51,953 nucleotides of DNA. It comes from Nanobdellota archaeon. Its GTDB lineage: Archaea > Nanobdellota > Nanobdellia > Woesearchaeales > DSVV01. Shown one piece after another: positions 18,753 through 34,001 of the stretch (the first letter of the stretch is position 1; every line of letters starts with the position of its first letter). The position numbers were made by a program, and so were the translations under genes. Location: NCBI GenBank assembly GCA_051819785.1, contig JBNJGV010000001.1, forward strand, positions 1 to 51,953, written 5' to 3'. The notes beneath the pieces were generated by a model. It made no database searches. It was not told the origin of the DNA and saw only the letters and a list, made by a program, of their open reading frames with translations.

Positions 18753-19394
18753 ATGTACTATGATGTTGTGTGCCCTAATGGGAATGAAAGAGAATTTATA
18801 GAAATGGCTAAAAGGCTAGGGTATGGTGGTATTTGTTTTCTTTATGAAGAAAAAATTCCTACAAATCAAATTTCAGATGAAAGGGTTGTTATTTTTTCAG
18901 CTGTTATTGCCAGAGATTCACGAAAAGCTGAAAGAAAAGCAGATTTATTTTTTGCAAAAGAAGTAACGAGCATTAGGAATTTAATAGAAAAAGGTTTTTC
19001 AGGTATCATTTTAGGCGCAGAAAACCAAAAAAGAAAGGACTTTATTCATCAAAGAAATTCGGGTGTTGATCATATTATATGTGAGTTTGCAAAAAAAAAA
19101 GGGACGGCTTTTGGCTTTTCTTTTAATGATTTAATAACTCCTCCAGGTTCACGCTTTGTGGGGAGAGTTATTCAAAATATAAGGCTGTTTCAAAAATATA
19201 ATTTAGATGCTGTGATATGTTCTTTGGCCCAAAAACCTTATGAAATGCGCAATCCAAGGGATTTAATTTCTTTGTATGGCTGGCTCGGCTTAATTTCACC
19301 AAAATTAGCTTTGAGCAATCTTGGTAAGCTTGTGAAAACGTATAAGAAAAAAAGCAAGGATAAAATCTCTGAAGGAATTGAGGTGGTTGAGTGA
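18753..19394 (+). CDS. rnp3: RNase P protein component 3 (Rpp30)
   Basis: GVDHIICEFAKKKGTAFGFSF ... RNPRDLISLYGWLG closely matches the conserved C-terminal blocks of archaeal Rpp30 (GIDH..., R-x-PRDLISL). I prefer the ATG at 18753 (MYYDVV) over the GTG at 18732. Confidence 0.8.
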   Translation: MYYDVVCPNGNEREFIEMAKRLGYGGICFLYEEKIPTNQISDERVVIFSAVIARDSRKAERKADLFFAKEVTSIRNLIEKGFSGIILGAENQKRKDFIHQRNSGVDHIICEFAKKKGTAFGFSFNDLITPPGSRFVGRVIQNIRLFQKYNLDAVICSLAQKPYEMRNPRDLISLYGWLGLISPKLALSNLGKLVKTYKKKSKDKISEGIEVVE

Positions 19395-20386
19395 TTATAT
19401 ATAATCTCTCATTGTTTTTTATTGGTCTTTTTTTAGGGATAATTACTTCATATACAGATTATTATTTAGGCAAGATTAGAAATAAACATTTAGCTGTTTC
19501 TTTTTTTTTAATGTTGATAATCATCTTTTTACAATATTTTATTTCTGCTCTTCCAAGAGAAGAGTATGCGTTTTTAGTAATTAATCTTTTATTAACAACT
19601 ATTGCTTCAGTGATGTTATGGATTTTTGGGTTTTGGACTCCAGGGGATGCAAAATTGTTTATTGTTTTTTCCTTTTTACTTTCTAGTATTTTTCCAACCT
19701 CTAAATTTTCCGGTTTAGCTTGCATAAGTTTTTCCTTTTGTGTCTTTATCCCTTTATTTTTAGGTCTTGTATTAATGTCTCTTTTTAAGTTAAGTTTTGA
19801 GGATTTTAAGAAAGGGCTTAAATCGTCTTTAGATAAGAAATTTTTATTTTCAATCCCCGGGGTTTTTATAATTCATTGGTTTTTTTCTTTAGGTGTTCTC
19901 AAGTCTCTTGTTATTATTTTGATTTTGGCGCTTGTTTACTTTTTTTTCAATCGTTTTATTACTTACGCGATACTCTGCCTTGTTTTTTTGAGGTTTTTAT
20001 TAGACAAAGAAATTTTTTCGTTTTTTTATTTGAATTATTTTTTAATATTGATTTTTTTAATTTTTATATTCAGGTTTTTTATATGTGAAATTTTCTTTGA
20101 TGTTTTTTGTAAAGAGACCAAAATTAAGTCACTCAAGAAAGGTATGGTTCCAGCAGAAAAAATTGTTAAAAAAGGTTCAGAATACATCAAAGTGCCTATG
20201 AAAGGGAAGCTTTCAAAATCTTCTGAGTTTTTTAAGCCCCGGCCAGAGGGCTTGAACAGAACAGAAATTCTTAAGTTAAAACGAAACAAATCCGGAATTT
20301 CTTGTATAAAAATTTACAGGACAATTCCTTTTGCACCCTTTATATTTTTAGGGTATTTGTTATTTGTTTTCATCTCAATTAGCTAA
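19391..20386 (+). CDS. Polytopic membrane protein, A24-family type IV prepilin/preflagellin peptidase-like
   Basis: It has multiple TM helices. The first candidate catalytic Asp lies in SYTDYYLGKIRNKHL (D-x5-I-x-N pattern). The second lies in FWTPGDAKLFIVF (G-x-GD-x-KL pattern). The GTG start overlaps the Rpp30 stop. Confidence 0.6.
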   Translation: MIIYNLSLFFIGLFLGIITSYTDYYLGKIRNKHLAVSFFLMLIIIFLQYFISALPREEYAFLVINLLLTTIASVMLWIFGFWTPGDAKLFIVFSFLLSSIFPTSKFSGLACISFSFCVFIPLFLGLVLMSLFKLSFEDFKKGLKSSLDKKFLFSIPGVFIIHWFFSLGVLKSLVIILILALVYFFFNRFITYAILCLVFLRFLLDKEIFSFFYLNYFLILIFLIFIFRFFICEIFFDVFCKETKIKSLKKGMVPAEKIVKKGSEYIKVPMKGKLSKSSEFFKPRPEGLNRTEILKLKRNKSGISCIKIYRTIPFAPFIFLGYLLFVFISIS

Positions 20387-21107: not shown

Positions 21108-21108
21108 T

Positions 21109-22114: not shown

Positions 22115-22130
22115 AGAAAAATATATAAAT
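22115..22130 (+). promoter_or_regulatory. BRE/TATA-like promoter element for the His-Xaa-Ser-tailed protein gene
   Basis: AGAAAAATATATAAAT ends 21 nt before the ATG at 22152, which implies a leaderless or near-leaderless mRNA. The identical 16-mer occurs at 40343-40358. Confidence 0.45.
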
Positions 22131-22151: not shown

Positions 22152-22475
22152 ATGGATTTACCCAAGGTTAAAAAAAAAGTTAATGGTTTTCTCTTGAACG
22201 AAGATGGGAAAATATCTAAGCAGGCTGCAGTTACAGTAGGTGGTGCCTTGGGTGTTTTTGTTGGTTCTTCTCTTATAGATTTTAGTTTTGCAGATTCTAT
22301 CAAACATTCACCAAAGGCGGATTGTGATCCTGTAGTAAAAGGTAATAGTGATAGTTCTGGGCATTGTTGGGCGCATAATAATAATATAATTAATGATTTT
22401 AAGCAAGATGCAGTAAAAAGTCAACACCAGCACCATTATAATCATACCAGCCATAGCAGCCATGGCTCCTATTAA
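22152..22475 (+). CDS. Small TM/signal-anchored protein with a C-terminal His-rich His-Xaa-Ser repeat tail (HxsA-like candidate precursor)
   Basis: The 107-aa product from the ATG at 22152 is MDLPKVKKKVNGFLL...AAVTVGGALGVFVGSSLIDF...KSQHQHHYNHTSHSSHGSY. The last 10 residues contain HTS-HSS-HGS. It overlaps the next gene's start by 14 nt. The track start at 22092 lies upstream of the TATA element, so I disfavour it. Confidence 0.5.
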   Translation: MDLPKVKKKVNGFLLNEDGKISKQAAVTVGGALGVFVGSSLIDFSFADSIKHSPKADCDPVVKGNSDSSGHCWAHNNNIINDFKQDAVKSQHQHHYNHTSHSSHGSY

Positions 22476-24234
22476 AAAGGAAAAAGTTAAATACAAAAAC
22501 CAAGGCGTAGCTTTGATGACAAAAAGATTCTTAGATTTGGGCTTGAAAAACAATAATAAAAATTCTTTTTTTGGAAAAGGGAAAAGTCGTAAATTTGATA
22601 ATATTGTTGATGAAATCGAAGGATTTAATTCATGGGATTCTGTTGTAATCTTTGGTAGTGAACCAACTGCAAGAAACGATTTTTTTAAAATTATTTCAAA
22701 ACTTAAGATAAAGGGTATTAACAAAATTTCCCTCATTACAAACGCCCGAGCATTTAATTATTCGAGTTTTGTAGAAAGATTAAGAGGTATAAAAGAATTG
22801 AAGGTTTTTGTTGAGCTCATGGCCCCAACTTTTGAAATGCACGACAAGATTACTGGCACTCCTGGAAGCTTTACACAAACGATAAAAGGCATTGAGAAGT
22901 TGATTGAAAAGGAATTCGATCTTTCATTAATCTTTCCAGTAGTTAAAGATAATTCAGATTTGATTTCAGGGATGGGTGAACTTTCATCTGTTTATGATAT
23001 TAAAAATATAGTTGTTTTTAACCCTCCTGAAAAACTCTTGAATAGATTAATTGATGCTGGCAAGAGGCATCCTCTCTTATTTAGTGTAGTTGGTTTAAAG
23101 CCCGAATTAGTTCGCTCGCCTTTGGATTTTTGTTTAGATCTTACTGATTTGGAAGAACTAGACCTAGAAAATGAGCCTTTTTTAAGAGTTTTAAGAGCAC
23201 TTGAACGCTTTCATAATAATAGCTTGATATATGTTTCACCTGATGAGGTTTATTATATGTTTCATAAATTTTCAAAGGGATATGAATTTCTTGATTTTGC
23301 TCATGATTTTGGATTTCCTGTGCCTGTTTTGATGCACCTGTTTAGGGAGCTTGAAAAGGAAAGAATTGTGACAATTGATGGGAAAAGGATAAAGCTTGAA
23401 ATTGAGCCGTTGGTTATAGAAAATTCAAAAAGTTTTAGAGAACAAAGACTTGAAGAGATTCCTTCTATATGTCAATTGAGAGTTGATGAGGTTGCACTTT
23501 TGAAAAGAGCAGACTTTGTCACAGAAAGGTCCTTAGGGAGCAGCAGGATTGCAATTCTTGGAGACGATGATTTTTTTTCACTGATTCTGGCAAGCAAAAA
23601 GGTTTTTCAGGAGATTTTCGTCTTTGAGCTTGATGAACGGATATGTGAGAAAATCAAAAGTATTGCTGAAAAAGAAAATTATAATATAAGGGTTGTCAAG
23701 CAGGACTTGAGAAAAGAATTCAGTCCCGAACTTATTGGCAAATTTGATGTTTTTTATACTGATTGTCCTTATTCTGTTAATGGCTTTACTCTTTTCTTTT
23801 CCAGGGGGTTGCAGCTATTGAAAAAAGAAAGGAAAAAAAGAGGATTTATGTCTTTTTCACCGAATCTTCCCATTGAGAGTGTAGAGATGGGTGTTCAAAA
23901 AGTGATAAATGATTCCGGAGTTTTTATTGAAAAGAAGCATCTGGGCGCAATTAATGAAATGCCTGATTATATTAGGCAAAAATATGATGATTTTAGTGCC
24001 TTGAAGAAAAATCTTGATGATTATGAAAGCATCCCTCTAGATGATAGTTGGTTTCTCTCAAGTCTGGGAAGAGAAGAGCAGTTGTTTTCTTTTTTGACTA
24101 CAAGTATGACACGCCCCCTGATTAGGGGTAAATTCGACGGCGAAATATATTATGGTGAGAACCCTCTTGCTTATTATACCGATAAAGAAAGCATAAAGAA
24201 AAGCAAATCAGAGAATGACATGTTCAAGTATTAA
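22462..24234 (+). CDS. Fusion: Cys-less (degenerate) radical-SAM-like HxsC-type domain + winged-helix-like linker + BpsA/DUF43 aminopropyltransferase-like domain
   Basis: The N-terminal half aligns with the radical SAM protein at 31124..31957 (VVIFGSEPTA / VVLSGGEPTL, ITNARAFNYS / LSNARAFSNK, HDKITGTPGSFTQTIKGIEKLIEK / HDAMTRTKKSFKQAVTGLKKLISK). Where the partner has KCNNNCLCC this protein has LKNNNKNSFF, and there is no Cys in the first roughly 215 aa. The C-terminal half has ILGDDDFFSLILA and GKFDVFYTDCPYSVNGFTLFFSRG, which match the DUF43/BpsA motifs (GDDDLTS, DPPYT...G...F.SRG). Confidence 0.6.
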   Translation: MAPIKKEKVKYKNQGVALMTKRFLDLGLKNNNKNSFFGKGKSRKFDNIVDEIEGFNSWDSVVIFGSEPTARNDFFKIISKLKIKGINKISLITNARAFNYSSFVERLRGIKELKVFVELMAPTFEMHDKITGTPGSFTQTIKGIEKLIEKEFDLSLIFPVVKDNSDLISGMGELSSVYDIKNIVVFNPPEKLLNRLIDAGKRHPLLFSVVGLKPELVRSPLDFCLDLTDLEELDLENEPFLRVLRALERFHNNSLIYVSPDEVYYMFHKFSKGYEFLDFAHDFGFPVPVLMHLFRELEKERIVTIDGKRIKLEIEPLVIENSKSFREQRLEEIPSICQLRVDEVALLKRADFVTERSLGSSRIAILGDDDFFSLILASKKVFQEIFVFELDERICEKIKSIAEKENYNIRVVKQDLRKEFSPELIGKFDVFYTDCPYSVNGFTLFFSRGLQLLKKERKKRGFMSFSPNLPIESVEMGVQKVINDSGVFIEKKHLGAINEMPDYIRQKYDDFSALKKNLDDYESIPLDDSWFLSSLGREEQLFSFLTTSMTRPLIRGKFDGEIYYGENPLAYYTDKESIKKSKSENDMFKY

Positions 24235-25304
24235 GGTATTATTTCACACCCATTATATTTTGTGTATTCAAAATCATCTATGGAGACTACGCCTTTTTCT
24301 ATCATGTCTTGGATTTTTGGCTTTATTTCAATCAATTTATCTATAAGGTTTTTTACGGTTTCACATACCAGGTTAAAACCCTCCTCGCCCCATGGCTTTG
24401 TAAGGTTTGCGACAAGGCATCTCCCACCGCATAATCCATAATAGCTACATGAAGTACAAGGGGTTTTTACAAACAAGGAGTTTTCTAATTCAAAGGGTGT
24501 TTTTTGGAAGATTGTTCCTAGGATGAAATCTTTATCTCTTAGATTTGTGCAAGGGGCAATTGATCCATCGGTAAGTATATTAAAAAAGTTTCTTCCTGCG
24601 CCACATCGAAGCAAAGTATTTTGTTCTTTTATAATATTCTGCATGACTCCAATAAATGGATAAATTTTTTTCACATTCCCTCTTTCAATTTTTTCTAACC
24701 ATTCATCTACAAGCTTTCTTATTCCTGGGTTATATTTTTCATAAACCCATTTTTCTGGATTTTTCCATGTCTCTTTATCAAAAAAGCACATGTTAAGTTG
24801 CCAGTGAATAGAATCAAAAATTCCTACCCTTAATAGGTGATTAACTTGTTTATGTATGTCTGTTTTTTCATCAATTGTCATCCTTGCTATTAATTCACCT
24901 TCGAAGCCGTTTTGTTTTATCTGTTTTGCATTATTTATGACGGATTTGTAAGTTCCTATTCCTCTGTAATAATCCGTTAATATCTCGTCACCATCTATGG
25001 AAATGAGTATGGTATGCAACCTATTGATATAATTTCTTTTTATTTCTTTTAGAAGAATGCCATTTGTCTGTAGCATAAATTTTTTCGCATGTACACAATC
25101 CATTATTTTTTTGATTTGATTCTTGTTAATGAGGGGTTCTCCTCCATAAAAAGTAATATTGCACTCAGCGTCTTTTTCAAGGAATGATTTAAGATCTTCT
25201 AGATTATATGACGGGAAAAAAGGAAATCTTCTCCTTACTTTGTTATCTGCACAATATTTGCATTTCAGATTACAATTCATGGTTGTAAATATATTATAAT
25301 TCAT
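24231..25304 (-). CDS. Radical SAM enzyme with C-terminal SPASM-type Cys-rich domain (peptide-maturase-like)
   Basis: The CX3CX2C motif is at TMNCNLKCKYC, followed by FYGGEPL and QTNG. The C-terminal Cys cluster is CGAGRN...APC...CTSCSYYGLCGGRC. Confidence 0.85.
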   Translation of the reverse strand: MNYNIFTTMNCNLKCKYCADNKVRRRFPFFPSYNLEDLKSFLEKDAECNITFYGGEPLINKNQIKKIMDCVHAKKFMLQTNGILLKEIKRNYINRLHTILISIDGDEILTDYYRGIGTYKSVINNAKQIKQNGFEGELIARMTIDEKTDIHKQVNHLLRVGIFDSIHWQLNMCFFDKETWKNPEKWVYEKYNPGIRKLVDEWLEKIERGNVKKIYPFIGVMQNIIKEQNTLLRCGAGRNFFNILTDGSIAPCTNLRDKDFILGTIFQKTPFELENSLFVKTPCTSCSYYGLCGGRCLVANLTKPWGEEGFNLVCETVKNLIDKLIEIKPKIQDMIEKGVVSIDDFEYTKYNGCEIIP

Positions 25305-25347: not shown

Positions 25348-26946
25348 ATGAAAAAATCATTCCTGAAAGTTTGTGATAAAAGCAATAATAAAAACACCTT
25401 TTTTGAAAATAACAGCATCTTATCTTTTAAAGATATATGTGAAAGCCATAATGTTGTAATATGCGGGGGAGAACCCACCTTGTTTTCGGGGTTTTTCAAT
25501 CTGATATCTAAATTATCTGGTTGCAGGAGCATTTCTGTGATAACAAATGCAAGGGCTTTTTCTTATTCTTGGTTTTCCAGAAAAATTGATGGCAATTCTT
25601 TTAATGCCTATGTTGAAATTCTTTCTTACGATGAATCTAGGCATGATTCACTTACGGGAACTCCTGGAAGCTTTAAGCAAACTATTGAAGGCGCCAGAAA
25701 TCTCTTAGATTCATCAATACAGCTCAACTTTGTAATGCCTTTTATTGGACAGGATAAAAACGAGATTATATTAACTAAAAAATTAGCTCATGACCTGGGA
25801 GCAAAAAGATTTGTGATTAAGAATTGCACCAATCGTAATTATCCTCCTTTTTTCTTCAAGGAGCTTTCAGACGATTTCCCTTTTGATATTGAAGCAATAG
25901 ATTTTGAAGATTTTAATTTGCCTTCCAAAATGAAATTATGTTTTGAAATTCAGGATCTTAACCTGATAACTGGCTCTACAAGAATAAAATTATTGAGGAT
26001 AATTAGGGATTTGATTTATCCAGTCCCTTTTTCTAATCCTGATGATCTTTATAATTGTTTTCATAATATAAATGAATCCATATTGGATTCAAGCGAAAAG
26101 ACTGGTCTGGGAATAGAGTCCATTTATGATATAAATTCTCTCGTTAAAAGGGAAGGGCTGGTTCAATTGCCTCAACCACCCTGTATAGGCAAATTGCCGG
26201 GCCCGGAATCTGATAATAATCCCAATCTTTGCCAATTGAGCCTTAATAAAGAACATTTAATGCATAGATTAAATTATCTTTTGAAAATAATGGTTCCAGG
26301 AAGCGATCTGGTTTTATTGGGTGATGAAGATAATATTTCAATTGAACTTGCCAAGACAGGGCACTTCAAATCAATTACTGTTTTTGAGTATGATTCTGAT
26401 ACAGTCAAAGAATTAAAAAAAAAAGGGAAAGATTACCCAATATTTGTTTATGAGCATGATTTGAGGAAAAAAATTCCTTGTAAATTTAATGGTGTTTTTG
26501 CTTATATGTATTGCGCACCCCCTCATAATCCTGAAGGGTTTAGGCTTTTTGTTTCAAGAGGCGTTAAGCTGCTAAGGGGTGTGTTTGCAAAAAAGGCCTT
26601 TGTTTCTTTTGACATGTCTTTTTTAGATAAGGCCCATGAAATAAAAATCAATAAGATTATAAACGAGATGGGCTTGTTATCAAAAAATATTGGTCTTGAA
26701 TGTGTGCCTGAATTTCCTAAATATTTGCATAGAAGGTACTCTGACCCTAAATATTTACGTGGTGCAATAACTGATCCCTTTCATATCAATAAGAATGATT
26801 TATGGCATTTATCAAAGACCGGAAGAGCTGAATCATGCTTTGAACTAATTGTTCCGACCGATTGCAAGCCGGCAGTTGAATCTGATATACATGAAAATGT
26901 ATGCTATGATGAAGATATTTTTGAAAAACTTAGTTATTTGGAATGA
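25348..26946 (+). CDS. Second fusion paralog: degenerate radical-SAM-like domain + BpsA/DUF43-like domain
   Basis: CGGEPTL, ITNARAFSYS and HDSLTGTPGSFKQTIEGARNLL are retained. The cluster-binding site reads VCDKSNNKNTFF, with no CX3CX2C. The C-terminal half has VLLGDEDNISIELA and FAYMYCAPPHNPEGFRLFVSRG (DUF43-like with an altered DPPYT). Confidence 0.6.
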   Translation: MKKSFLKVCDKSNNKNTFFENNSILSFKDICESHNVVICGGEPTLFSGFFNLISKLSGCRSISVITNARAFSYSWFSRKIDGNSFNAYVEILSYDESRHDSLTGTPGSFKQTIEGARNLLDSSIQLNFVMPFIGQDKNEIILTKKLAHDLGAKRFVIKNCTNRNYPPFFFKELSDDFPFDIEAIDFEDFNLPSKMKLCFEIQDLNLITGSTRIKLLRIIRDLIYPVPFSNPDDLYNCFHNINESILDSSEKTGLGIESIYDINSLVKREGLVQLPQPPCIGKLPGPESDNNPNLCQLSLNKEHLMHRLNYLLKIMVPGSDLVLLGDEDNISIELAKTGHFKSITVFEYDSDTVKELKKKGKDYPIFVYEHDLRKKIPCKFNGVFAYMYCAPPHNPEGFRLFVSRGVKLLRGVFAKKAFVSFDMSFLDKAHEIKINKIINEMGLLSKNIGLECVPEFPKYLHRRYSDPKYLRGAITDPFHINKNDLWHLSKTGRAESCFELIVPTDCKPAVESDIHENVCYDEDIFEKLSYLE

Positions 26947-26983: not shown

Positions 26984-28009
26984 ATGAAAAATAGGTTTCT
27001 TGAAAAAGCAATGACCAAAAATGAAATACGTGTATTTAATCATGTTGTTTTCAACAATTTTCTTGATATCTCAGAATTGAGGGCTGAATTTAAGGAGTCT
27101 TTGGAAAATCTTGAAAAAAAAGGTATTTTGATAAAGAAAAATAATTTTTATTTTTTAGATAATCCTTCAAAGGTTTTTAAAAACCTAAATAAGATTCTTA
27201 AAAACAGTTCAATCGATAAGATAATAGATGAAAAGACAACCCACCAACATATTGAAGTGACAAAAATGGGCGATGAGTTTCTCTTAGAATTAAACAGTAA
27301 CCCGCAGGTTTGTTCTATTGATGAAGAAGAATATCACTTTTGTATTGGAACTGTTCCATGTTGCTTAGCAAAAAAATTAAATCGTGTTCTTATTCTTGGG
27401 GGTGGTGATCTTTTAGCTGCACGCAATGTCTTGCAATTTAATGAAGTTGATGAAGTTATTCTTGTTGAACTTGATAAAAGGATACTTGATATTTTTTGTA
27501 ATTTGAATTTTCTTGCTGATTGTAACAAGTTTGCTTTTTCTGATTCCAGATTGAAAATAATTAACGGGGATGCATTTAAATGGCTAAATGAGGACAGTGG
27601 GAATTTTGATGTAATTATTTATGACTGTGAAGAAACGTTTACTAATCAGGGTGAAGAATTCAACATGGTTTCATACCTTGGGTTTTATGAACTGATGTTT
27701 AATAAATTGTCAGAGGGTGGGATACTCACCTTTAATTGTTCCAATGATCCTGAAGAAGAAGAATATTTTGATTATATGTTTGAAAAAAATATCAAAAAAA
27801 ATCTCCCTACCCATATTAGTAATATTATTGAAAAGAAAAAAAAGATGCATCAAAAACAATGGCTGTTGCATAAATTTAATCACAAGAATGTTGTGCGCAT
27901 CGACCTGACTTCACCTGTTGTAGGGTTCCATTCAAATTGGTATTTTTCTAATGAAAAAATAACCCAAAGGCGTGGGAATCAATCCTTAGATAATTTTTTC
28001 ATAAGATAA
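26984..28009 (+). CDS. Spermidine-synthase-fold (aminopropyl/methyl-transferase class I) protein with an N-terminal wHTH-like domain
   Basis: RVLILGGGDLLAARNVLQFNEVDEVILVELDKRILD and NGDAFKWL...FDVIIYD follow the SpeE pattern (GGGDGG ... E-x-D ... GD-x-x-x-[FW]L ... [FY]DVII-x-D). Confidence 0.55.
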   Translation: MKNRFLEKAMTKNEIRVFNHVVFNNFLDISELRAEFKESLENLEKKGILIKKNNFYFLDNPSKVFKNLNKILKNSSIDKIIDEKTTHQHIEVTKMGDEFLLELNSNPQVCSIDEEEYHFCIGTVPCCLAKKLNRVLILGGGDLLAARNVLQFNEVDEVILVELDKRILDIFCNLNFLADCNKFAFSDSRLKIINGDAFKWLNEDSGNFDVIIYDCEETFTNQGEEFNMVSYLGFYELMFNKLSEGGILTFNCSNDPEEEEYFDYMFEKNIKKNLPTHISNIIEKKKKMHQKQWLLHKFNHKNVVRIDLTSPVVGFHSNWYFSNEKITQRRGNQSLDNFFIR

Positions 28010-29007
28010 AGGCAGTTTTCTTGCCCTGCATGCCTATCAAAGGTGCCCGTCTTTACTAATTTATCTGATACTGCAATTAACCTGCAACCTCCTTTGCATA
28101 TATTAAAATATTCACATGAAGCGCAGGGTTCTTTTATCTTGTCAAAATTAATCAAGTTGTTTTTTATATTGATGTTTTTACCATCGAAATTTCCTATGCT
28201 GAACTCATCTACTGCTGACATACAAGGACAAGGGAAAATTTTCATATCCTCCAGACGTATTGCAATATGATTTTTGCCTGCATTGCAATAATGGTTCTTA
28301 AGAGGAGGTGCGAAAAACCAGCATTTTCTTTTATTTTCAGGGTTGTCTGGACCCCAGATTGAATCCAACTCAATAGTAAATGAATATTTTCCATAGTTTT
28401 CTTTTATTTTTTTATATATCTCATATCTTTCTTTTCCGGTTAAAATAGAATCTTCTCCAAGATTTTTTTTGGCATTTCCTGAATAGCATAATGGGATGAG
28501 CTCAACAAAATTAATAGGTAGGTTTTTCTCAGCGAAATCAAGCATATCTTTAATGTGGTTTTTGTTTTTTTTGTTTACTACGAAGTTTACACCGATAGTT
28601 TGTATATGGTCTCTGTGGCTTTTTTTTATGTAATTGACAATCTTGTTGAAATCATTTTTGCCACTTGAATATTTATGCAGTTTTTGATTATGTCCATGAA
28701 GGCTTATGACAATATTTGTCTTAAGTGAGTTCATGTATCTCAAGTCTTTCTCATCCGGAGAAAATTCTGGATTGATGTTAAGCCATTCGGGGTTGCTTCT
28801 TTCAAATTGCTTTGTTTTTCTAAATATTTCTATGGATTCATGATTTATATTAAAATCAAACAGATGAACAAAGTATCCTTGTTTTTTTAGAATCTTGACT
28901 ATTTGGGAGATCTTTTTGTATCCAACCGGAGAAGACCCTCCATAACAGCAAATATTGCAGTTACGTTGGCAATTCTTGTGAACAAGAGTAATTGTTTTAA
29001 TTTCCAT
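27979..29007 (-). CDS. Radical SAM enzyme with SPASM-like C-terminal Cys cluster
   Basis: The CX3CX2C motif is at KNCQRNCNICC. The C-terminal Cys cluster is CNAGKNH...FPCPC...EPCASCEYFNICKGGCRL. Its 3' end overlaps the convergent gene by 31 nt. Confidence 0.8.
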   Translation of the reverse strand: MEIKTITLVHKNCQRNCNICCYGGSSPVGYKKISQIVKILKKQGYFVHLFDFNINHESIEIFRKTKQFERSNPEWLNINPEFSPDEKDLRYMNSLKTNIVISLHGHNQKLHKYSSGKNDFNKIVNYIKKSHRDHIQTIGVNFVVNKKNKNHIKDMLDFAEKNLPINFVELIPLCYSGNAKKNLGEDSILTGKERYEIYKKIKENYGKYSFTIELDSIWGPDNPENKRKCWFFAPPLKNHYCNAGKNHIAIRLEDMKIFPCPCMSAVDEFSIGNFDGKNINIKNNLINFDKIKEPCASCEYFNICKGGCRLIAVSDKLVKTGTFDRHAGQENCLYLMKKLSKD

Positions 29008-29052: not shown

Positions 29053-30180
29053 ATGGAAAAAAAACTTTTTGATTTTCAGGCATTGCTTGATAATTTCTCT
29101 GTGCTTGATAAAAAGTGGGACATTTCTTTAAAGAGTGTAGATGACCTTTCAAAGGTTAAAGTTACAAAAAGAAATGATATACATAGGTTCTCAATTAATT
29201 CTTGCCCTGAAAAACCAGTTTATGTTATGAATACCTCGGGAACTCTTGGGACGCCCACGTTATTTTTCATTTCAAAGGGTGCCTATGAAACACATATAAA
29301 AAGGGTTGAAACCATGTTCAAAATATCCGGATACAATCCGCATGAAGTTGTAGTTAACATGACAGAAGACCCAATTGCAAATAGTGCTTTTGTTCGTGGC
29401 GGGCATACATTTATTCATACTGGAATGCTGATTGAACAAAACGCAGAAATAATTGCCCAGAAGATTTTACAGACGAGACCCACTTATATGTATACATATC
29501 TTTCATTGGCATATGATTTATTCAAGATGATAAATAAGAAAGGTGTTGTGAAAAATATCGTTGGTGTTGGTTCTCTTGTTACTAAAGACTTTAAAAATTC
29601 TATTAAGGAGCTTACTGGTGCAGATTTTAAGATGATGTATGGGACACAGGAGTTTGGTGCTCTTGGCATCCAGGAAAATGAAGATGACGAATATTATTCT
29701 CTGATTGATGATGGTCTTTATACTGAGGTCATGAATAAATCTGGTGAAATCTCCGAAAACGGTAGTGGGGCTCTTCTTATTACAGATTACAATAATTTTT
29801 CATCGCCTTTTATAAGATATTTTGTAGGTGATGAAGTTGAGCTGATGAGAAAAGATGGCAAAACTTATCTTAAAGTTTTAGGCAGATGTGATAATTTTAT
29901 AAAACTCCAAGGGGATGTCGATTCAAAGGAAGGCATAATTTCAATTATGCAAGGTATTCTAAAACATGATAATTTTTTGATAGAGGTTACAAATGATACT
30001 GGATTAAATGACTATATGACCATTTTAGTACCTTCAAAGGATTTAGAAAAAAGAAAACTTATTTCAGAAAAAATGATGGAGTTTTACCAAGTACCTTGTG
30101 TTGTTAAAGCTTTAAATTCTCCTGTACCAAAGACACAATCTGGTAAAAGAATTAATATCAATGATAAACGATTTAGCTAG
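29053..30180 (+). CDS. Adenylate-forming ligase, PaaK/CapK/F390-synthetase-like
   Basis: MNTSGTLGTPTLFF matches the AMP-binding motif (SSGTTGKPT). LKVLGRCDNFIKLQGDV matches the GR-x-DD-x-I-x-x-x-G block. I prefer the ATG at 29053, preceded by AGGAGG at 29044-29049. The track start at 28903 would overlap the divergent radical SAM gene. Confidence 0.6.
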   Translation: MEKKLFDFQALLDNFSVLDKKWDISLKSVDDLSKVKVTKRNDIHRFSINSCPEKPVYVMNTSGTLGTPTLFFISKGAYETHIKRVETMFKISGYNPHEVVVNMTEDPIANSAFVRGGHTFIHTGMLIEQNAEIIAQKILQTRPTYMYTYLSLAYDLFKMINKKGVVKNIVGVGSLVTKDFKNSIKELTGADFKMMYGTQEFGALGIQENEDDEYYSLIDDGLYTEVMNKSGEISENGSGALLITDYNNFSSPFIRYFVGDEVELMRKDGKTYLKVLGRCDNFIKLQGDVDSKEGIISIMQGILKHDNFLIEVTNDTGLNDYMTILVPSKDLEKRKLISEKMMEFYQVPCVVKALNSPVPKTQSGKRININDKRFS

Positions 30181-30193: not shown

Positions 30194-31084
30194 TCAAATT
30201 GTTTCATTACATTTTTCTTTGATTATATTTTTATATCTTAAATAATCTTGTTTTGTTATTGTTTCGCATATTTCAGAATCAGGGGAGGGTAATGACCCAC
30301 ACATACTGGCATTACCTGTTTTGAAAGCATTAAAAAAAACAGAAATCTCTATACATGTGTTATAATTATTAAAATCATCATTGCTTTTGAAGTAATCACA
30401 ATATGTTGTGTTTTTTTCTGATATTGCTTTGCAATATGTTTTAGGAACTGCTTCCATGGAATCGCAGCTTGTTTTTTTTTTAAATAATAATTTACAAAGG
30501 CTCTTTTGTTCTTCTTTTCCAATTTTATTACACAATTTCTCGTCTTTATCTTTAAGCGCTTTTGAAGAGAAATAGACTGCTTTACAATAATCTTTTTCTT
30601 CTTTATTATCAATTTTATTGCAAAAATCAGGGTTGTTTTCAAATAGGGCAATAATAATAGGATCTTTATTCTCTTCATAACACTTCTGGATTTCCTCTTC
30701 AACAAACCTTTTGTTCCTTTCTCTGGTAAGTTCGTCCATTTCTTCATTTGTTAATTTTGTTTCTTTCTCTTCATTTATTTCTTCTTTCTCTTCAGGTGTA
30801 TCTTCTGTTGTGTCTGTGTTATTAGGTTCTTCTGAGTTAATTAGTAATAAAAACATTCCGACAATTAAAAGAACAATCATAATGACTGCAAAAATATATA
30901 CTTTGCCTGTATTATGTATTTTGTATTTTTCTTGCTGAAGGGGTTGATTTTTCTCGGCCTCTTTAAAGGCAAAATTAATTTTTTCTTTGTTATATCCTGC
31001 CTCAACTAGAATTTTTGTAATTTTTTCATCAGAGAAGCCCCTTTGCTTTTCTCTTAAGATATAGTTGGCTAATTGTTCGACCAT
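30194..31084 (-). CDS. Single-pass membrane protein with acidic linker and Cys-rich extracytoplasmic domain (hypothetical)
   Basis: The N-terminal soluble segment is ANYILREKQRGFSDEKITKILVEAGYNKEKI, and the TM helix is VYIFAVIMIVLLIVGMFLLLI. About 16 Cys follow in recurring C-[NK]-K-[IA] / K-x-x-C spacing. Confidence 0.5.
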   Translation of the reverse strand: MVEQLANYILREKQRGFSDEKITKILVEAGYNKEKINFAFKEAEKNQPLQQEKYKIHNTGKVYIFAVIMIVLLIVGMFLLLINSEEPNNTDTTEDTPEEKEEINEEKETKLTNEEMDELTRERNKRFVEEEIQKCYEENKDPIIIALFENNPDFCNKIDNKEEKDYCKAVYFSSKALKDKDEKLCNKIGKEEQKSLCKLLFKKKTSCDSMEAVPKTYCKAISEKNTTYCDYFKSNDDFNNYNTCIEISVFFNAFKTGNASMCGSLPSPDSEICETITKQDYLRYKNIIKEKCNETI

Positions 31085-31123: not shown

Positions 31124-31957
31124 TTACTTTACGGTGGTTGTAAAAGGTACGGGTTTTTCTCCTGAATGCTCAATGTAACCTTTCCAGAAACCGCAGCATT
31201 TTGATTTTTTTTCACACCTCCTGCATTCATTTGGGAAATATATGTCTTCTTCAGGCGCAGTTTTTCCTTTGGTATGCTTATGAAGTTCTTTTGGAAGAAA
31301 ACAAAGCGGCAGGTGTAAAATTATAGGCTTTATATTAGTTTTTTTTATAACCTTTGTTGCATTTTTTATTGGTTCTATTGTTTTTTTATAGCTAATAAAC
31401 AAATTGTTAATGTTACTTAATGCTTCACCATCAATTTTCATTTGTATAAATACAATCCTTTTAGCACCCTGAAACTCTTTTTTTATAAATTGAGAAATCT
31501 TTTCAAGTTTACTATAGTTAAGTTTTGTTATTATTATTCGTACTTCTGCGTTATATCCTTTAGATATTAGTTTTTTTAATCCAGTAACGGCTTGTTTGAA
31601 GCTTTTTTTGGTTCTAGTCATAGCATCATGTTCTGGCTCATTATCTGAATAAAGAGCTGTTGCTATTATGAATCTTTCTTTATTAATATTACAAGATTCA
31701 AATTTTTCAAAGAAATTTTTGTTTGAGAAAGCCCTTGCATTGCTGAGTATTAACCCAGATGAACCTGAATTATTAACGTCTTTTATTGCTTTGAAGAAAT
31801 TTTTAGAAAGCGTAGGTTCTCCACCCGAAAGAACAACCATCTTTTCTTTATCTTTTATTTTTGGGTAACTATCTCTTACTTCTTTTTCTCTTAACTTTTT
31901 CTCGGCAACACAGCATAGGCAGTTGTTATTGCATTTTGTTGTAAGTGTAATATGCAT
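31124..31957 (-). CDS. Radical SAM enzyme, HxsC-like (second maturase of a His-Xaa-Ser-type pair)
   Basis: The CX3CX2C motif is at TTKCNNNCLCC, with GGEPTL and NARAF blocks. The C-terminal Cys cluster is CRRCEKKSKCCGFW. It lies immediately downstream of the HxsB-like gene. Confidence 0.5.
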   Translation of the reverse strand: MHITLTTKCNNNCLCCVAEKKLREKEVRDSYPKIKDKEKMVVLSGGEPTLSKNFFKAIKDVNNSGSSGLILSNARAFSNKNFFEKFESCNINKERFIIATALYSDNEPEHDAMTRTKKSFKQAVTGLKKLISKGYNAEVRIIITKLNYSKLEKISQFIKKEFQGAKRIVFIQMKIDGEALSNINNLFISYKKTIEPIKNATKVIKKTNIKPIILHLPLCFLPKELHKHTKGKTAPEEDIYFPNECRRCEKKSKCCGFWKGYIEHSGEKPVPFTTTVK

Positions 31958-33392: not shown

Positions 33393-33598
33393 TTTAGTAT
33401 TTTGGTCATTCCAAGCGTATAATTTTTGAACTCTTTAATTGTTTCTTCGGGGTTTTCTCTTTTGGTTTTCAGTTTAACTTTATGGGTTTCTTTATCTTCT
33501 TTTAAGTCCCCTTCGACAAAATCTTTAAAATCATTAATGGCTGCAAGGATTGCGTTTTTAGAGTATAATTCCTTTTCGAACCTAACTGTTTTCTCCAT
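33389..33598 (-). CDS. HxsD-like small protein, short paralog (69 aa)
   Basis: VRFEKELYSKNAILAAINDF...IKEFKNYTLGM aligns with the neighbouring 139-aa protein (FLDKELYPKDVLHTTAYVF...SKEFKNQLINYAHHM). Its stop overlaps the HxsB-like start (ATGA). Confidence 0.4.
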   Translation of the reverse strand: MEKTVRFEKELYSKNAILAAINDFKDFVEGDLKEDKETHKVKLKTKRENPEETIKEFKNYTLGMTKILK

Positions 33599-34001
33599 TT
33601 TTGTTATATTTTTCCTCCCACGGGACGAGAATTCCTTCAGGGTCTTCTATATCATCTTCCTGCTCAAAGTCGAATTCAAAACTCTCCTCTTCGTTATCGA
33701 TAAAATTGTATGCGAAAATCTCTTGGAGAAGCTTTTTCTTAACTTCTTTGTTTTTTTCATTCATTTGCATATGGTGGGCATAATTTATTAGTTGGTTTTT
33801 GAATTCTTTTGAAAGTTGTTTTGCGTCTTTGTTGTTTTTTGGCTCGAGTTCAACGATAATTTCGTTATCTTTACCCTTTTTCAAAAAGATATAGGCCTTT
33901 TCAAGGAAAACATATGCTGTTGTGTGAAGCACATCTTTTGGGTAGAGCTCTTTGTCAAGAAAGATTTCAACCTTTTCTTTCTCTGAGTTGGTCTTTTCCA
34001 T
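33582..34001 (-). CDS. HxsD-like small protein with acidic C-terminal tail (139 aa)
   Basis: EFKNQLINYAHHMQMNEKNKEVKKKLLQEIF resembles the LLNDYxLRE-type motif region that defines HxsD. I prefer the ATG at 34001 (MEKTNSEKEK) over the TTG at 34022. Confidence 0.4.
   Translation of the reverse strand: MEKTNSEKEKVEIFLDKELYPKDVLHTTAYVFLEKAYIFLKKGKDNEIIVELEPKNNKDAKQLSKEFKNQLINYAHHMQMNEKNKEVKKKLLQEIFAYNFIDNEEESFEFDFEQEDDIEDPEGILVPWEEKYNKNGENS

What the first reader, a model, noticed from the sequence alone, without database searches (positions are those of the whole stretch)
22152..22475. Candidate precursor: an anchored 107-aa protein with three terminal His-Xaa-Ser triplets, 9 kb away from its predicted HxsB/C/D maturases
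The C-terminus reads KSQHQHHYNHTS-HSS-HGS-Y. It has 8 His in the last 19 residues, with three back-to-back H-x-S units. A Cys pair lies upstream (DCDPVV...SSGHCWAH). The gene has its own TATA-like element and overlaps the first degenerate-rSAM/BpsA fusion gene by 14 nt, which suggests translational coupling with a modifying enzyme. The canonical Hxs-like genes at 31-34 kb have no HxsA next to them. This ORF is therefore the only visible His-Xaa-Ser candidate, and it is split from them.
Basis: partly seen in the sequence, partly recalled or inferred. Interest (0 to 1): 0.7.

Follow-up and report, generated by a model that had tools for sequence, protein, structure and literature searches.

The report
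Archaeal His-Xaa-Ser precursor protein gene
This small gene in a tiny-genome (DPANN) archaeon is real and encodes the missing substrate protein of a radical-SAM "His-Xaa-Ser" maturation system. That kind of system has only recently been shown to block phage DNA entry in bacteria, and here it sits in a rearranged, enlarged archaeal version with extra polyamine-type enzymes.

Summary
The ORF at 22152-22475 (+) is a real, conserved gene. Three orthologs are each exactly 107 codons. In the 19-codon His-rich tail they differ by 11-12 synonymous and 0-1 non-synonymous changes, while the middle of the protein diverges freely.

The protein belongs to a large, unannotated family found mostly in DPANN archaea (240 clusters at 50% identity). 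Members share an N-terminal PKxKKK...EEGKISKQ region, a hydrophobic segment, and a C-terminal HxHH motif followed by (HxS)n. The family is homologous to the NCBIfam HxsA3 and HxsA4 models but scores below their cut-offs.

In 21 of 29 family lineages with enough flanking DNA, the gene lies directly downstream of HxsD, an HxsD-like gene and HxsB. The window is a rearranged exception: its HxsD/HxsD-like/HxsB/HxsC genes lie 9 kb away. Locus L038 carries the unsplit version. It includes the same Cys-less HxsC-like/BpsA fusion, an AF0577-type rSAM and an AdoMet decarboxylase.

Two details need correcting. The last 19 residues hold 6 His, not 8. The 14-nt overlap is an ORF-calling artefact, because the fusion gene starts at 22516.

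Verdict: a new variant of a known kind, of moderate to high interest.

The parts
22115..22130 (+). Conserved archaeal promoter element (BRE/TATA-like), AGAAAAATATATAAAT, ending 21 nt upstream of the ATG. This spacing implies a leaderless or near-leaderless mRNA.
   Evidence: Invariant in the window, L001 and L003, while the DNA upstream of it is unconserved.
22152..22475 (+). HxsA-like (HxsA3/HxsA4-related) precursor gene, 107 aa plus stop.
   Evidence: Orthologs in L001 and L003 are also exactly 107 codons. NCBI record ACQESF_00100 calls it a 'hypothetical protein'.
22152..22223 (+). Conserved basic N-terminal region (residues 1-24, MDLPKVKKKVNGFLLNEDGKISKQ). It is the family signature and a probable leader or recognition sequence.
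   Evidence: Matches positions 2-53 of the HxsA3 profile. P4, K8, E17, G19, I21 and K23 are at least 90% conserved across 127 family members. Codons 1-36 show 17-20 synonymous and 6-7 non-synonymous changes in the window's two comparisons (14 and 6 between L001 and L003).
22224..22292 (+). Gly/Ala-rich hydrophobic segment (residues 25-47), ending in S-F-A. It is a probable signal or membrane-anchor segment.
   Evidence: Hydropathy scan. G30 is at least 90% conserved. Its function is inferred.
22323..22382 (+). Subfamily core holding the Cys pair: C58 (DCDP) through C72-W-A-H75-N-N77.
   Evidence: C72 and H75 are invariant and N77 nearly invariant in the 11-member subfamily. H75 is at least 90% conserved family-wide.
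22416..22472 (+). His-rich C-terminal tail KSQHQHHYNHTSHSSHGSY. It contains the H-x-H-H-Y-N-H motif, three tandem HxS units (22443-22469) and a terminal Tyr. It is the probable modification site.
   Evidence: 0-1 non-synonymous against 11-12 synonymous codon changes in the window's comparisons with L001 and L003. The HxHH plus (HxS)n pattern is family-wide.
22516..24234 (+). Fusion 1: Cys-less HxsC-like pseudo-radical-SAM domain joined to a BpsA-like aminopropyltransferase, with the GDDD motif retained.
   Evidence: It lies directly downstream of the small gene in L001 and L003 and in the same gene array in L038.
24231..25304 (-). TIGR04084 (AF0577-type) radical SAM/SPASM enzyme.
   Evidence: 357.5 bits against a cut-off of 225. 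Orthologs lie next to the fusion in L001 (58% identity) and L038 (38% identity, E=9e-75).
25348..26946 (+). Fusion 2: paralogous Cys-less HxsC-like domain joined to BpsA_C, with a GDED variant of the GDDD motif.
26984..28009 (+). SpeE-like aminopropyltransferase.
   Evidence: Pfam Spermine_synth, 92 bits. NCBIfam polyamine aminopropyltransferase models match at E=8e-37 but below their cut-offs.
27979..29007 (-). Second radical SAM/SPASM enzyme.
   Evidence: SPASM domain TIGR04085, 42.6 bits against a cut-off of 27.
29053..30180 (+). PaaK/F390-synthetase-like adenylate-forming ligase.
   Evidence: A PaaK-like domain is fused to an HxsC-like rSAM in L004.
30194..31084 (-). Cys-rich single-pass membrane protein occupying the 'HxsA position' after HxsC.
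   Evidence: It has no HxS repeats. L038 has a homolog next to an HxsC-like gene (E=1e-10). L013 has a weak match (E=3.5e-4) to the protein that follows its small gene. The proteins following the small genes in L009 and L011 look similar in architecture but gave no window hit.
31124..31957 (-). HxsC-like radical SAM enzyme with an intact CxxxCxxC motif.
   Evidence: TIGR03977 is the best hit at 178.8 bits, below its cut-off of 267.9. The motif is KCNNNCLCC.
31989..33392 (-). HxsB radical SAM/SPASM maturase.
   Evidence: TIGR03978 scores 490.4 bits against a cut-off of 370. It is 47-60% identical to HxsB genes that directly precede small-family genes elsewhere.
33389..33598 (-). HxsD-like protein.
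   Evidence: NF038315 scores 67.3 bits against a cut-off of 41.
33582..34022 (-). HxsD.
   Evidence: TIGR03976 scores 53.6 bits against a cut-off of 50.
19391..20386 (+). Divergent archaeal A24-type (prepilin-peptidase-like) membrane aspartyl peptidase, a candidate leader peptidase.
   Evidence: D23 and D86 (PGDAKLF) are invariant in 7 homologs. Six of 7 hit Pfam Arc_PepC and 4 of 7 hit Peptidase_A24. Homologs lie just upstream of HxsD in L010, L011, L013 and L038 and near the small gene in L001 and L006.

Best explanation
ORF 22152-22475 encodes the HxsA-equivalent substrate protein of an archaeal (DPANN) His-Xaa-Ser-type maturation system.

Architecture, as shown by sequence and conservation. 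A 24-residue conserved basic N-terminal region is followed by a roughly 23-residue hydrophobic segment and then a variable linker. Next comes a conserved Cys-pair/H-x-N core, and then a strictly conserved C-terminal H-x-H-H-Y-N-H-(HxS)3-Y tail.

Proposed mechanism, inferred by homology with the bacterial HXS system and from gene neighbourhoods.
1. In the cytoplasm the radical SAM enzymes HxsB and HxsC modify the His/Ser tail, helped by the small proteins HxsD and HxsD-like. These genes lie at 31.1-34.0 kb on the minus strand.
2. Accessory enzymes encoded between the two gene sets add further modifications. These include two HxsC-like domains that have lost their Fe-S cysteines and are fused to BpsA-type, dcSAM-dependent aminopropyltransferase modules. 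The dead HxsC-like domain most likely holds the HxS tail so that the transferase domain can alkylate it.
3. The N-terminal region acts as leader and export signal. It is probably processed by the cluster-associated A24-type membrane peptidase (19391-20386). This would leave the polycationic, modified His-rich tail exposed outside the cell, either anchored or released.

The 9-kb separation from hxsBCD is a lineage-specific rearrangement of a cluster that is contiguous in most relatives.
For: Real, selected gene. Three orthologs are each 107 codons. The tail shows 11-12 synonymous against 0-1 non-synonymous changes in the window's comparisons, while the middle shows 7-11 against 29-36. The promoter element is conserved.

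Homology to HxsA-type models. HxsA3 (NF038309) matches at E=2.8e-6. Of 127 relatives, 124 hit HxsA3, 29 hit HxsA4, 14 hit HxsA and 6 hit HxsA2. Relatives that sit next to HxsB almost reach the HxsA4 cut-off, for example 50.6 against 55 bits over the full length.

Family-wide architecture. A profile search finds 240 clusters at 50% identity. HxHH and tandem HxS repeats are common, and 78 of 142 members end in Tyr or Trp.

Genomic association. Of 50 distinct family proteins with at least 1.5 kb of upstream DNA, 41 have an HxsB homolog on the same strand ending within 1.2 kb upstream. At about 60% identity that is 21 of 29 lineages. Explicit gene maps are in L006, L008, L010, L011 and L013.

L038 is the unsplit counterpart of the window. 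Its gene order is A24-like, HxsD, HxsD-like, HxsB, small protein, rSAM/SPASM, AdoMet decarboxylase, Cys-less HxsC-like/BpsA fusion, AF0577-type rSAM. An HxsC-like gene and a Cys-rich membrane protein gene lie divergently upstream.

The window's own Hxs genes. HxsB, HxsD and HxsD-like pass curated cut-offs.

The fusions. They lack all three radical-SAM Cys but keep the BpsA GDDD motif, which is indispensable in BpsA (PMC12979288). AdoMet decarboxylase genes lie next to the small gene or the fusion in L003 and L038.

Bacterial precedent. [quoted passage not shown] The mature protein is exported (PMC13128918).
Against: - No expression or mass-spectrometry data exist for this or any archaeal family member.
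- The protein scores far below the curated cut-offs of HxsA3 (27 against 65 bits) and HxsA4, and does not hit canonical HxsA (TIGR03979) at all.
- It lacks the peptidoglycan-binding domain of E. coli HxsA and has only three HxS units.
- In this genome the gene is not adjacent to hxsBCD, and HxsC is below its model cut-off.
- Eight of 29 lineages lack an adjacent HxsB.
- Some relatives instead sit beside B12-binding rSAM genes together with an HxsC-like rSAM/SPASM gene (L005, L007) or a double rSAM (L002). The partner enzymes are therefore not uniform.
- The window has no AdoMet decarboxylase gene.
- The aminopropylation step rests on only three loci that carry the fusion.
- The A24 peptidase assignment is weak for the window protein itself (13.7 bits, E=0.072), and a profile search of PDB sequences found nothing.
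Confidence: 0.75

Rival explanations
1. The small protein is the substrate only of the enzymes encoded next to it (the BpsA-type fusions and the AF0577-type rSAM/SPASM). The HxsBCD set 9 kb away is a separate system with another substrate, possibly the 296-aa Cys-rich membrane protein that occupies the canonical HxsA position after HxsC.
For: The pairing of small gene and fusion is conserved in the window, L001 and L003. The 296-aa gene follows HxsC, which is where HxsA sits in 99.6% of bacterial systems. Its homologs recur in related clusters.
Against: In 21 of 29 lineages the small-family gene directly follows HxsB. L038 has HxsB, the small gene, the fusion and the AF0577-type rSAM in one same-strand array. 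The 296-aa protein has no HxS motif. In L009, L011 and L013 the gene after the small gene encodes a similar Cys-rich membrane protein, so such proteins accompany the small protein rather than replace it.
Confidence: 0.1
2. The protein is an unmodified His-rich surface or metal-binding protein (for Ni, Zn or Cu), or a pilin-like subunit processed by the A24-type peptidase. On this reading its tail works through plain histidine chemistry and the neighbouring rSAM genes act on something else.
For: The tail is His-rich and carries a Cys pair, as in metal-binding proteins. A charged N-terminus followed by a hydrophobic segment resembles a class III signal peptide. An A24-like peptidase is conserved in the clusters. 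No modification has been demonstrated.
Against: The spacing is strictly HxS rather than generally His-rich. The protein is homologous to the HxsA3/A4 models. It is adjacent on the same strand to HxsD and HxsB in most lineages, with up to seven HxsC-like rSAM paralogs downstream. In E. coli the HxS repeats need rSAM maturation to function. Metal or DNA binding could still be the final function of the modified protein, so this rival is only partly exclusive.
Confidence: 0.1
3. The ORF is a chance low-complexity reading frame in AT-rich DNA and is not a gene.
For: It is short, the genome is 34% GC, and NCBI calls it 'hypothetical protein'.
Against: There are 240 homologous clusters. The tail is under purifying selection, with 12 synonymous and 0 non-synonymous changes against L003. 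The promoter is conserved. None of 200 shuffled windows contains (HxS)x3.
Confidence: 0.01

Closest known systems
Bacterial HXS system (HxsA-D). It was predicted in silico by Haft & Basu in 2011 and shown in 2026 to block phage DNA entry in E. coli (PMC13128918).
   Same: It contains an HxsB rSAM/SPASM enzyme, and the window's HxsB passes the equivalog cut-off. It contains an HxsC-type rSAM and HxsD. Its substrate protein has an N-terminal export or processing signal and tandem His-Xaa-Ser repeats. Maturation is presumed to be cytoplasmic and followed by export.
   Different: - The substrate here is 107 aa, against 214 aa in E. coli, and has no peptidoglycan-binding domain.
- The HxS units sit at the extreme C-terminus, after an HxHHYNH motif, and end in Tyr.
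- The N-terminus is a distinct conserved PKxKKK...EEGKISKQ region.
- There is no hit to TIGR03979.
- The gene lies 9 kb from hxsBCD in this genome and after HxsB rather than HxsC in relatives.
- There is a second HxsD-like gene, an A24-type peptidase, a Cys-rich membrane protein, multiple HxsC paralogs or pseudo-HxsC fusions, and polyamine-type transferases.
- The host is archaeal, and the locus lies among core genes (Cdc6, PolD, RNase P p30) rather than in a defence island.
- The function is unknown.
NCBIfam HxsA3 (NF038309) and HxsA4 (NF038313) 'His-Xaa-Ser repeat protein' models
   Same: The N-terminal region is homologous: residues 3-55 match profile positions 2-53 at E=2.8e-6. The overall architecture is the same, with a leader, a hydrophobic segment and an HxS-rich C-terminus. 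Relatives align over the full length of these profiles.
   Different: Scores are below the curated cut-offs: 27 against 65 bits for HxsA3 and 13.7 against 55 bits for HxsA4. None of the members whose scores were examined individually reached a cut-off. Across the 127 members the best HxsA3 E-value was 3.9e-13 and the best HxsA4 E-value 4e-12, with no bit scores returned, and every hit named by a source is called a hypothetical protein. This subfamily adds a Cys pair (C...C[WY]xHxN) and an HxHHYNH motif.
BpsA, N4-bis(aminopropyl)spermidine synthase (PDB 5XNC; PF01861). This is the closest match for the adjacent fusion genes.
   Same: The Rossmann-type C-terminal domain aligns at E=1e-11. The catalytic GDDD loop is retained in fusion 1 (LGDDDFFS against LGDDDLTS). 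A link to dcSAM is implied by AdoMet decarboxylase genes in L003 and L038.
   Different: The domain is fused to an N-terminal HxsC-like radical-SAM domain that has lost CxxxCxxC. It is encoded inside a peptide-maturation cluster next to its presumed peptide substrate. The paralog has GDED instead of GDDD. The acceptor substrate is unknown.
Class III (type IV pilin-like) signal peptides processed by archaeal A24 peptidases (FlaK/PibD type)
   Same: A charged N-terminal region is followed by a hydrophobic segment. A dedicated GxGD-type membrane aspartyl peptidase is encoded in the cluster.
   Different: The N-terminal region is long (24 aa) and highly conserved, and it lacks the canonical [KR]-G/A cleavage motif. 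The peptidase assignment is weak, and no pilus assembly genes lie nearby.

Membership tests
HXS (His-Xaa-Ser) system | HxsB radical SAM/SPASM maturase present (TIGR03978). | tested here: met
   31989-33392 (-) scores 490.4 bits against a cut-off of 370 over the full-length profile.
HXS (His-Xaa-Ser) system | HxsC radical SAM maturase present (TIGR03977). | tested here: inconclusive
   For 31124-31957 (-) the best hit is HxsC at E=1e-52, but 178.8 bits is below the cut-off of 267.9. CxxxCxxC is intact.
HXS (His-Xaa-Ser) system | HxsD small protein present (TIGR03976). | tested here: met
   33582-34022 (-) scores 53.6 bits against a cut-off of 50. The HxsD-like NF038315 model scores 67.3 against 41 at 33389-33598.
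HXS (His-Xaa-Ser) system | Substrate protein with tandem His-Xaa-Ser repeats. | tested here: met
   HTS-HSS-HGS lies at residues 98-106. It is conserved in orthologs, and the number of repeats varies from 2 to more than 40 across the family.
HXS (His-Xaa-Ser) system | Substrate matches the canonical HxsA model TIGR03979 and has a peptidoglycan-binding domain, as in E. coli HxsA. | tested here: not met
   No TIGR03979 hit even at E<=10. Pfam finds no domain.
HXS (His-Xaa-Ser) system | Contiguous gene order HxsD-HxsB-HxsC-HxsA. | tested here: not met
   In the window the small gene lies about 8.6 kb from HxsC and on the opposite strand. In relatives the order is HxsD, HxsD-like, HxsB, small gene (21 of 29 lineages).
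HXS (His-Xaa-Ser) system | rSAM-dependent covalent modification and N-terminal processing of the substrate, and an anti-phage phenotype. | not testable with these tools
   This needs co-expression with MS and infection assays. PADLOC (2023) has no model that hits these proteins.
NCBIfam HxsA3 (NF038309) | HMM score at or above the curated cut-off (65 bits). | tested here: not met
   27 bits, E=2.8e-6, and only the N-terminal 53 profile positions align.
NCBIfam HxsA4 (NF038313) | HMM score at or above the curated cut-off (55 bits). | tested here: not met
   13.7 bits, E=0.087. Relatives P0233 and P0249 reach 50.6 and 53.7 bits.
Radical SAM superfamily (N-domain of the adjacent fusions) | CxxxCxxC motif that binds the [4Fe-4S] cluster. 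| tested here: not met
   KNNNKNSFF and KSNNKNTFF align with KCNNNCLCC of HxsC, so all three Cys are replaced. The same holds in L001 and L038.
BpsA / PF01861 aminopropyltransferase (C-domain of the adjacent fusions) | Pfam gathering score and the catalytic GDDD motif. | tested here: met
   95.5 and 52.3 bits against a cut-off of 27. GDDD in fusion 1 aligns with GDDD of 5XNC. Fusion 2 has GDED. Activity and acceptor were not tested.
Peptidase A24 (protein at 19391-20386) | Pfam A24 models and two catalytic Asp residues, the second in a GxGD-type motif. | tested here: inconclusive
   The window protein gives only Arc_PepC at E=0.072. Among 7 homologs, 6 hit Arc_PepC (best 7.9e-6) and 4 hit Peptidase_A24 (best 5.9e-4). 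D23 and D86 are invariant. No PDB sequence hit.

The most novel reading that the evidence does not exclude
The Cys-less HxsC-like/BpsA fusions are peptide-directed aminopropyl (or polyamine) transferases. The dead radical-SAM domain would hold the HxS tail. The BpsA module would use dcSAM, supplied by a cluster-linked AdoMet decarboxylase, to add aminopropyl groups to His, Ser or Tyr side chains or to the C-terminus. The PaaK-like ligase might instead couple a polyamine there. If so, this would be an undescribed class of ribosomal-protein modification. It would produce a super-cationic surface appendage that is conserved in many DPANN archaea and could serve in virus exclusion or in attachment to the host.
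Probability: 0.25. Interest if true: 0.85.

Novelty: new variant of a known kind. Interest (0 to 1): 0.62.

Why it matters
1. It supplies the missing substrate for HxsB/HxsD genes that NCBIfam models recognise in DPANN MAGs. It also defines a family of at least 240 sequence clusters that current HxsA models miss, and whose members, where a source names them at all, are labelled 'hypothetical protein'.

2. The published survey placed 99.7% of HXS systems in Pseudomonadota (PMC13128918). This result shows a large archaeal branch with a different substrate architecture and an enlarged enzyme set.

3. DPANN archaea have minimal genomes, yet they keep clusters of up to about ten radical-SAM genes around this small protein, in a core-genome neighbourhood. 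That points to an important role at the cell surface or in defence.

4. The chemistry of the HxS modification is still unresolved, even in E. coli. The short archaeal substrates, with a 19-residue invariant tail, are convenient for MS and enzymology.

5. The pseudo-rSAM/BpsA fusions, together with AdoMet decarboxylase, yield a concrete and testable hypothesis of peptide aminopropylation.

Tried and rejected
- **Chance ORF:** rejected.
- **Start at ATG 22092:** rejected. It lies upstream of the conserved TATA-like element, and homologs start at MDLPK/MDFPK.
- **Fusion gene start at 22462 (14-nt overlap):** rejected in favour of 22516.
- **Another HxS or family ORF in the window, for example near hxsBCD:** none found.
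- **Genome-contig scan with the fusion alignment:** returned one locus, L004. It is an Aenigmatarchaeota triple fusion (HxsC-like, rSAM/SPASM and PaaK-like) with no small protein, so it says little about the main question.
- **Word-indexed protein search with the fusion:** found only the window's own protein and the L001 ortholog. The fusion family's true spread is therefore unknown. L038 was found only through the small-protein scan.
- **PADLOC:** only generic viperin-like rSAM hits.
- **IMG/VR viral contigs:** no family member.
- **PDB profile search for the A24-like protein:** no hit.
- **AdoMet decarboxylase in the window:** none.
- **Literature on DPANN Hxs systems or peptide aminopropylation:** nothing found.
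- **Haft & Basu 2011:** not held in the library.
- **U32 peptidase-like pair (20379-22008):** considered as a cluster component. Apart from the closely related L001, only one other locus showed it nearby (L037, 8 kb away), so it was left out of the model.
Full report
**Source and observation**

The window comes from a Nanobdellota (DPANN) archaeon MAG. The ORF product is identical to ACQESF_00100, annotated 'hypothetical protein', on a 73.7-kb contig.

ORF 22152-22475 (+) encodes 107 aa:

MDLPKVKKKVNGFLLNEDGKISKQAAVTVGGALGVFVGSSLIDFSFADSIKHSPKADCDPVVKGNSDSSGHCWAHNNNIINDFKQDAVKSQHQHHYNHTSHSSHGSY

- The tail reading, the three back-to-back HxS units (HTS-HSS-HGS, 22443-22469) and the Cys pair (C58, C72) are correct.
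- The His count is not. The last 19 residues hold 6 His, and the whole protein holds 9.
- (HxS)x3 occurs nowhere else in the six-frame translation of the window, and in none of 200 Markov-shuffled windows.

**Start codon and promoter**

A 16-nt element, AGAAAAATATATAAAT (22115-22130), is invariant in the window and in two orthologous loci, L001 and L003. The DNA further upstream is not conserved. The element ends 21 nt before the ATG at 22152. This spacing fits an archaeal TATA box driving a leaderless or near-leaderless transcript (established knowledge of archaeal promoters). It also excludes the upstream ATG at 22092.

The claimed 14-nt overlap with the next gene exists only for the longest ORF, which begins at ATG 22462. 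Three lines of evidence place the real start at MTKRFLDLG, position 22516: the L001 ortholog (MVKRFLDLG, 36 nt after its small gene), the in-window paralog (MKKSFLKV...) and the NCBI protein (572 aa, P0251). That leaves a 40-nt gap.

**The gene is real and under selection**

The orthologs in L001 and L003 are each exactly 107 codons.

| Region (codons) | Synonymous changes | Non-synonymous changes |
|---|---|---|
| Tail (89-107) | 11-12 | 0-1 |
| N-terminal (1-36) | 17-20 | 6-7 |
| Middle (37-88) | 7-11 | 29-36 |

The table gives the window's two comparisons, with L001 and L003; the L001-L003 comparison is similar. It rules out a low-complexity accident.

**Family**

- A profile built from the four closest sequences finds 240 clusters at 50% identity among 1.84 billion representatives.
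- Members share PKIKKK..FL..EEGKISKQ, a Gly/Ala-rich hydrophobic segment, a nearly invariant H-x-N, an H-x-H-H motif, and tandem HxS repeats.
- Of 142 members, 65 have at least two tandem HxS units, and some have more than 40.
- Of the same 142, 78 end in Tyr or Trp.
- The window protein belongs to a subfamily in which C72, H75, H92, H94, H95, N97 and H98 are invariant (C[WY]xHxN ... HxHHYNH).
- Named members come from Woesearchaeota, Nanoarchaeota and Nanobdellota MAGs, with one 'Omnitrophica' bin. All are annotated as hypothetical.
- No member was found in IMG/VR viral contigs.

**Relation to curated Hxs models**

The window protein hits NCBIfam HxsA3 (NF038309) at E=2.8e-6. Residues 3-55 align with profile positions 2-53, and the score of 27 bits is below the 65-bit cut-off. 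It hits HxsA4 weakly and canonical HxsA not at all.

Of 127 family members, 124 hit HxsA3, 29 hit HxsA4, 14 hit HxsA and 6 hit HxsA2 at E<=1e-3. Members that sit next to HxsB align over the full HxsA4 profile at 50.6-53.7 bits against a cut-off of 55. The family is therefore homologous to the curated HxsA3 and HxsA4 groups but falls outside their thresholds. This explains why these genes are annotated as hypothetical.

**Window neighbourhood**

Downstream of the small gene:

| Coordinates | Strand | Gene |
|---|---|---|
| 22516-24234 | + | Fusion 1: HxsC-like domain with all three CxxxCxxC Cys replaced, joined to a BpsA-like domain with GDDD retained |
| 24231-25304 | - | TIGR04084 rSAM/SPASM |
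| 25348-26946 | + | Fusion 2: paralog with a GDED motif |
| 26984-28009 | + | SpeE-like aminopropyltransferase |
| 27979-29007 | - | rSAM/SPASM |
| 29053-30180 | + | PaaK-like ligase |
| 30194-31084 | - | 296-aa Cys-rich membrane protein |
| 31124-31957 | - | HxsC-like, below cut-off, Cys motif intact |
| 31989-33392 | - | HxsB, 490 against 370 bits |
| 33389-33598 | - | HxsD-like, 67 against 41 bits |
| 33582-34022 | - | HxsD, 53.6 against 50 bits |

Upstream lie a U32-like gene pair (20379-22008, -) and a polytopic membrane protein (19391-20386, +).

**Comparative context, the decisive evidence**

Gene maps from five independent loci show the small-family gene immediately after HxsB. These are L006, L008, L010, L011/L012 and L013/L014. 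The order is A24-like membrane protein, HxsD, HxsD-like, HxsB, small-family gene, with intergenic gaps of 15-51 nt between HxsB and the small ORF. Several HxsC-like rSAM genes usually follow, up to seven, and all carry CNNNCxFC. Those HxsB genes are 51-60% identical to the window's HxsB.

A metagenome scan added 80 loci.
- Of 50 distinct family proteins with at least 1.5 kb of upstream DNA, 41 have an HxsB homolog on the same strand ending within 1.2 kb upstream.
- After clustering at about 60% identity, this holds for 21 of 29 lineages.
- The window/L001/L003 lineage is one of the eight exceptions. L009 is another, with HxsB 9.4 kb upstream.

Locus L038 (15 kb) is the unsplit counterpart of the window. 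A Cys-rich membrane protein gene and an HxsC-like gene lie on the minus strand. Divergent from them, on the plus strand, are:
1. the A24-like gene;
2. HxsD;
3. HxsD-like;
4. HxsB, 47.5% identical to the window's;
5. a 93-aa family member ending ...HVSHCSY;
6. an rSAM/SPASM gene;
7. an AdoMet decarboxylase gene;
8. a 618-aa Cys-less HxsC-like/BpsA fusion, 39% identical to the BpsA part of fusion 1 (E=4e-74);
9. an AF0577-type rSAM, 38% identical (E=9e-75).

The fusions and the AF0577-type rSAM are therefore genuine accessory parts of Hxs-type clusters. The region 19.4-34.0 kb of the window is best read as one rearranged cluster.

**Mechanism**

Shown here:
- homology of HxsB and HxsD to the bacterial maturases;
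- homology of the small protein to HxsA-type models;
- conserved adjacency in relatives;
- selection on the tail.

Inferred by analogy with E. coli. There, HxsB, HxsC and HxsD are all required for N-terminal processing of HxsA, a +8 Da modification was mapped to the last HxS repeat, and the matured protein is exported (PMC13128918). By analogy, the archaeal tail is modified in the cytoplasm by HxsB and HxsC with HxsD and HxsD-like, and the N-terminal region directs processing and export.

The cluster-associated membrane protein (19391-20386) has two invariant Asp residues: D23 in TSYTD and D86 in PGDAKLF. Its homologs hit Pfam Arc_PepC (6 of 7) and Peptidase_A24 (4 of 7). It is therefore a plausible dedicated leader peptidase. 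The evidence for the window protein itself is weak.

The fusions cannot be radical-SAM enzymes, because they lack the cluster-binding Cys. They do keep the BpsA GDDD loop, which is indispensable for dcSAM-dependent aminopropyl transfer in BpsA (PMC12979288). AdoMet decarboxylase genes lie next to the small gene in L003 and overlap the start of the fusion gene in L038.

The most economical reading is that the dead HxsC-like domain docks the HxS tail and the BpsA module alkylates it. This is an inference from three fusion-bearing loci only. The window itself has no AdoMet decarboxylase gene.

**Biological role**

The role is unknown. By analogy it could be antiviral. However, the locus sits among core genes: Cdc6, PolD, MCM, TBP and RNase P p30. 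Similar synteny is seen in L005, L007 and L010. The family is widespread in DPANN lineages. Both points look more like a vertically inherited cell-surface function than a mobile defence island (inference).

**Comparison and novelty**

The system works like the HXS system and shares HxsB and HxsD. The substrate fails the membership tests for HxsA, HxsA3 and HxsA4 on score. It lacks the peptidoglycan-binding domain, and the cluster composition differs markedly.

The literature searches found no description of archaeal or DPANN Hxs systems, nor of peptide aminopropylation. The 2026 survey placed 99.7% of HXS systems in Pseudomonadota.

It is a new variant of a known kind, with a potentially novel accessory chemistry.

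Noticed in passing
L001 9968-9976 (ortholog of the small gene, codon 17): The L001 ortholog has an in-frame TAA where the window and L003 have GAA/GAG (Glu): ...FLLN*EGKISKQ.... The rest of the 107-codon frame is intact and conserved. The contig coverage is only about 5x. It could be a sequencing error, a very recent pseudogene, or recoding.
   Followed up: partly
Family members P0009, P0011, P0157, P0158 and P0166; loci L062 (3-1256) and L085 (7608-8444): Some family members carry a Hint/intein-like domain (Pfam PT-HINT, Hint, Intein_splicing). It is inserted directly after the HxS repeats (...HSSHGSHGSHSS|CCFPAGT...LVHN|KGGWC). This suggests autocatalytic C-terminal processing, or ligation of the HxS tail.
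   Followed up: partly
L047 9977-11554, L064 9956-11548, and L042, L048, L049, L071, L092: Giant relatives of about 500 aa have the same N-terminal leader. They carry 25-43 uninterrupted tandem HxS units followed by a conserved C-terminal domain (...SKGYYKKV). They also lie directly downstream of HxsB.
   Followed up: partly
L038 10972-11340 and L003 549-902: S-adenosylmethionine decarboxylase genes (49% identical to each other) are embedded in or next to the cluster. In L038 the gene overlaps the start of the pseudo-HxsC/BpsA fusion gene. No such gene lies in the 52-kb window.
   Followed up: yes
window 30194-31084 (-); L038 3709-4395 (-); L009 10426-11217; L011 10374-11174; L013 10360-11091: A single-pass membrane protein with a Cys-rich extracellular domain (spaced C...YC repeats) recurs in these clusters. 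It sits either right after the small gene or right after an HxsC-like gene. Only L038 (E=1e-10) and L013 (E=3.5e-4) show detectable similarity to the window protein; L009 and L011 share the architecture. It has no Pfam or NCBIfam family.
   Followed up: partly
window 34118-46604 (+): Three consecutive giant secreted Cys-rich proteins (1001, 1080 and 2070 aa) have essentially no Pfam hits. Homologs of the first lie within a few kb of Hxs clusters in L008, L017, L051, L080 and L085.
   Followed up: partly
L004 1789-4800 (Aenigmatarchaeota contig QMZP01000068.1): A 1003-aa triple fusion joins an HxsC-like rSAM (CNNNCSFC), a second rSAM/SPASM domain and a PaaK/F390-synthetase-like ligase. This links the PaaK-like ligase of the window (29053-30180) functionally to HxsC-type enzymes.
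   Followed up: no
L011 11247-12905; L013 14372-16189: Other HxsC-like paralogs are fused to class-I methyltransferase domains (L011) or to an AP_endonuc_2/xylose-isomerase-like TIM barrel (L013). Fusion of an HxsC-like domain to a second catalytic module is therefore a recurring theme, not only with BpsA.
   Followed up: no
window 20379-22008 (-): A pair of U32-family genes resembles the anaerobic hydroxylases UbiU/UbiV/TrhP. It lies divergently and directly upstream of the small gene and is conserved in L001. In the 90-plus other loci it was seen near the small gene only once (L037, 8 kb away), so it is probably not part of the system.
   Followed up: partly
window 1-1826, especially 1751-1822: A very AT-rich region (22% GC) lies upstream of cdc6 (1827-3038). 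It has an inverted pair of ORB-like elements (TTCCACAGGAAAC at 1751-1763 on the plus strand and TTCCAGATGAAAC at 1810-1822 on the minus strand), just before the cdc6 start. PolD genes follow. This is probably the replication origin.
   Followed up: partly
L005 and L007 (10410-13990); L006 2619-4790; locus of P0158: In several lineages the small gene is flanked convergently by a B12-binding (class B) radical SAM gene. In L005 and L007 an HxsC-like rSAM/SPASM fusion accompanies it, and no HxsB lies within 10 kb. The enzyme repertoire around this substrate family is therefore highly variable.
   Followed up: partly
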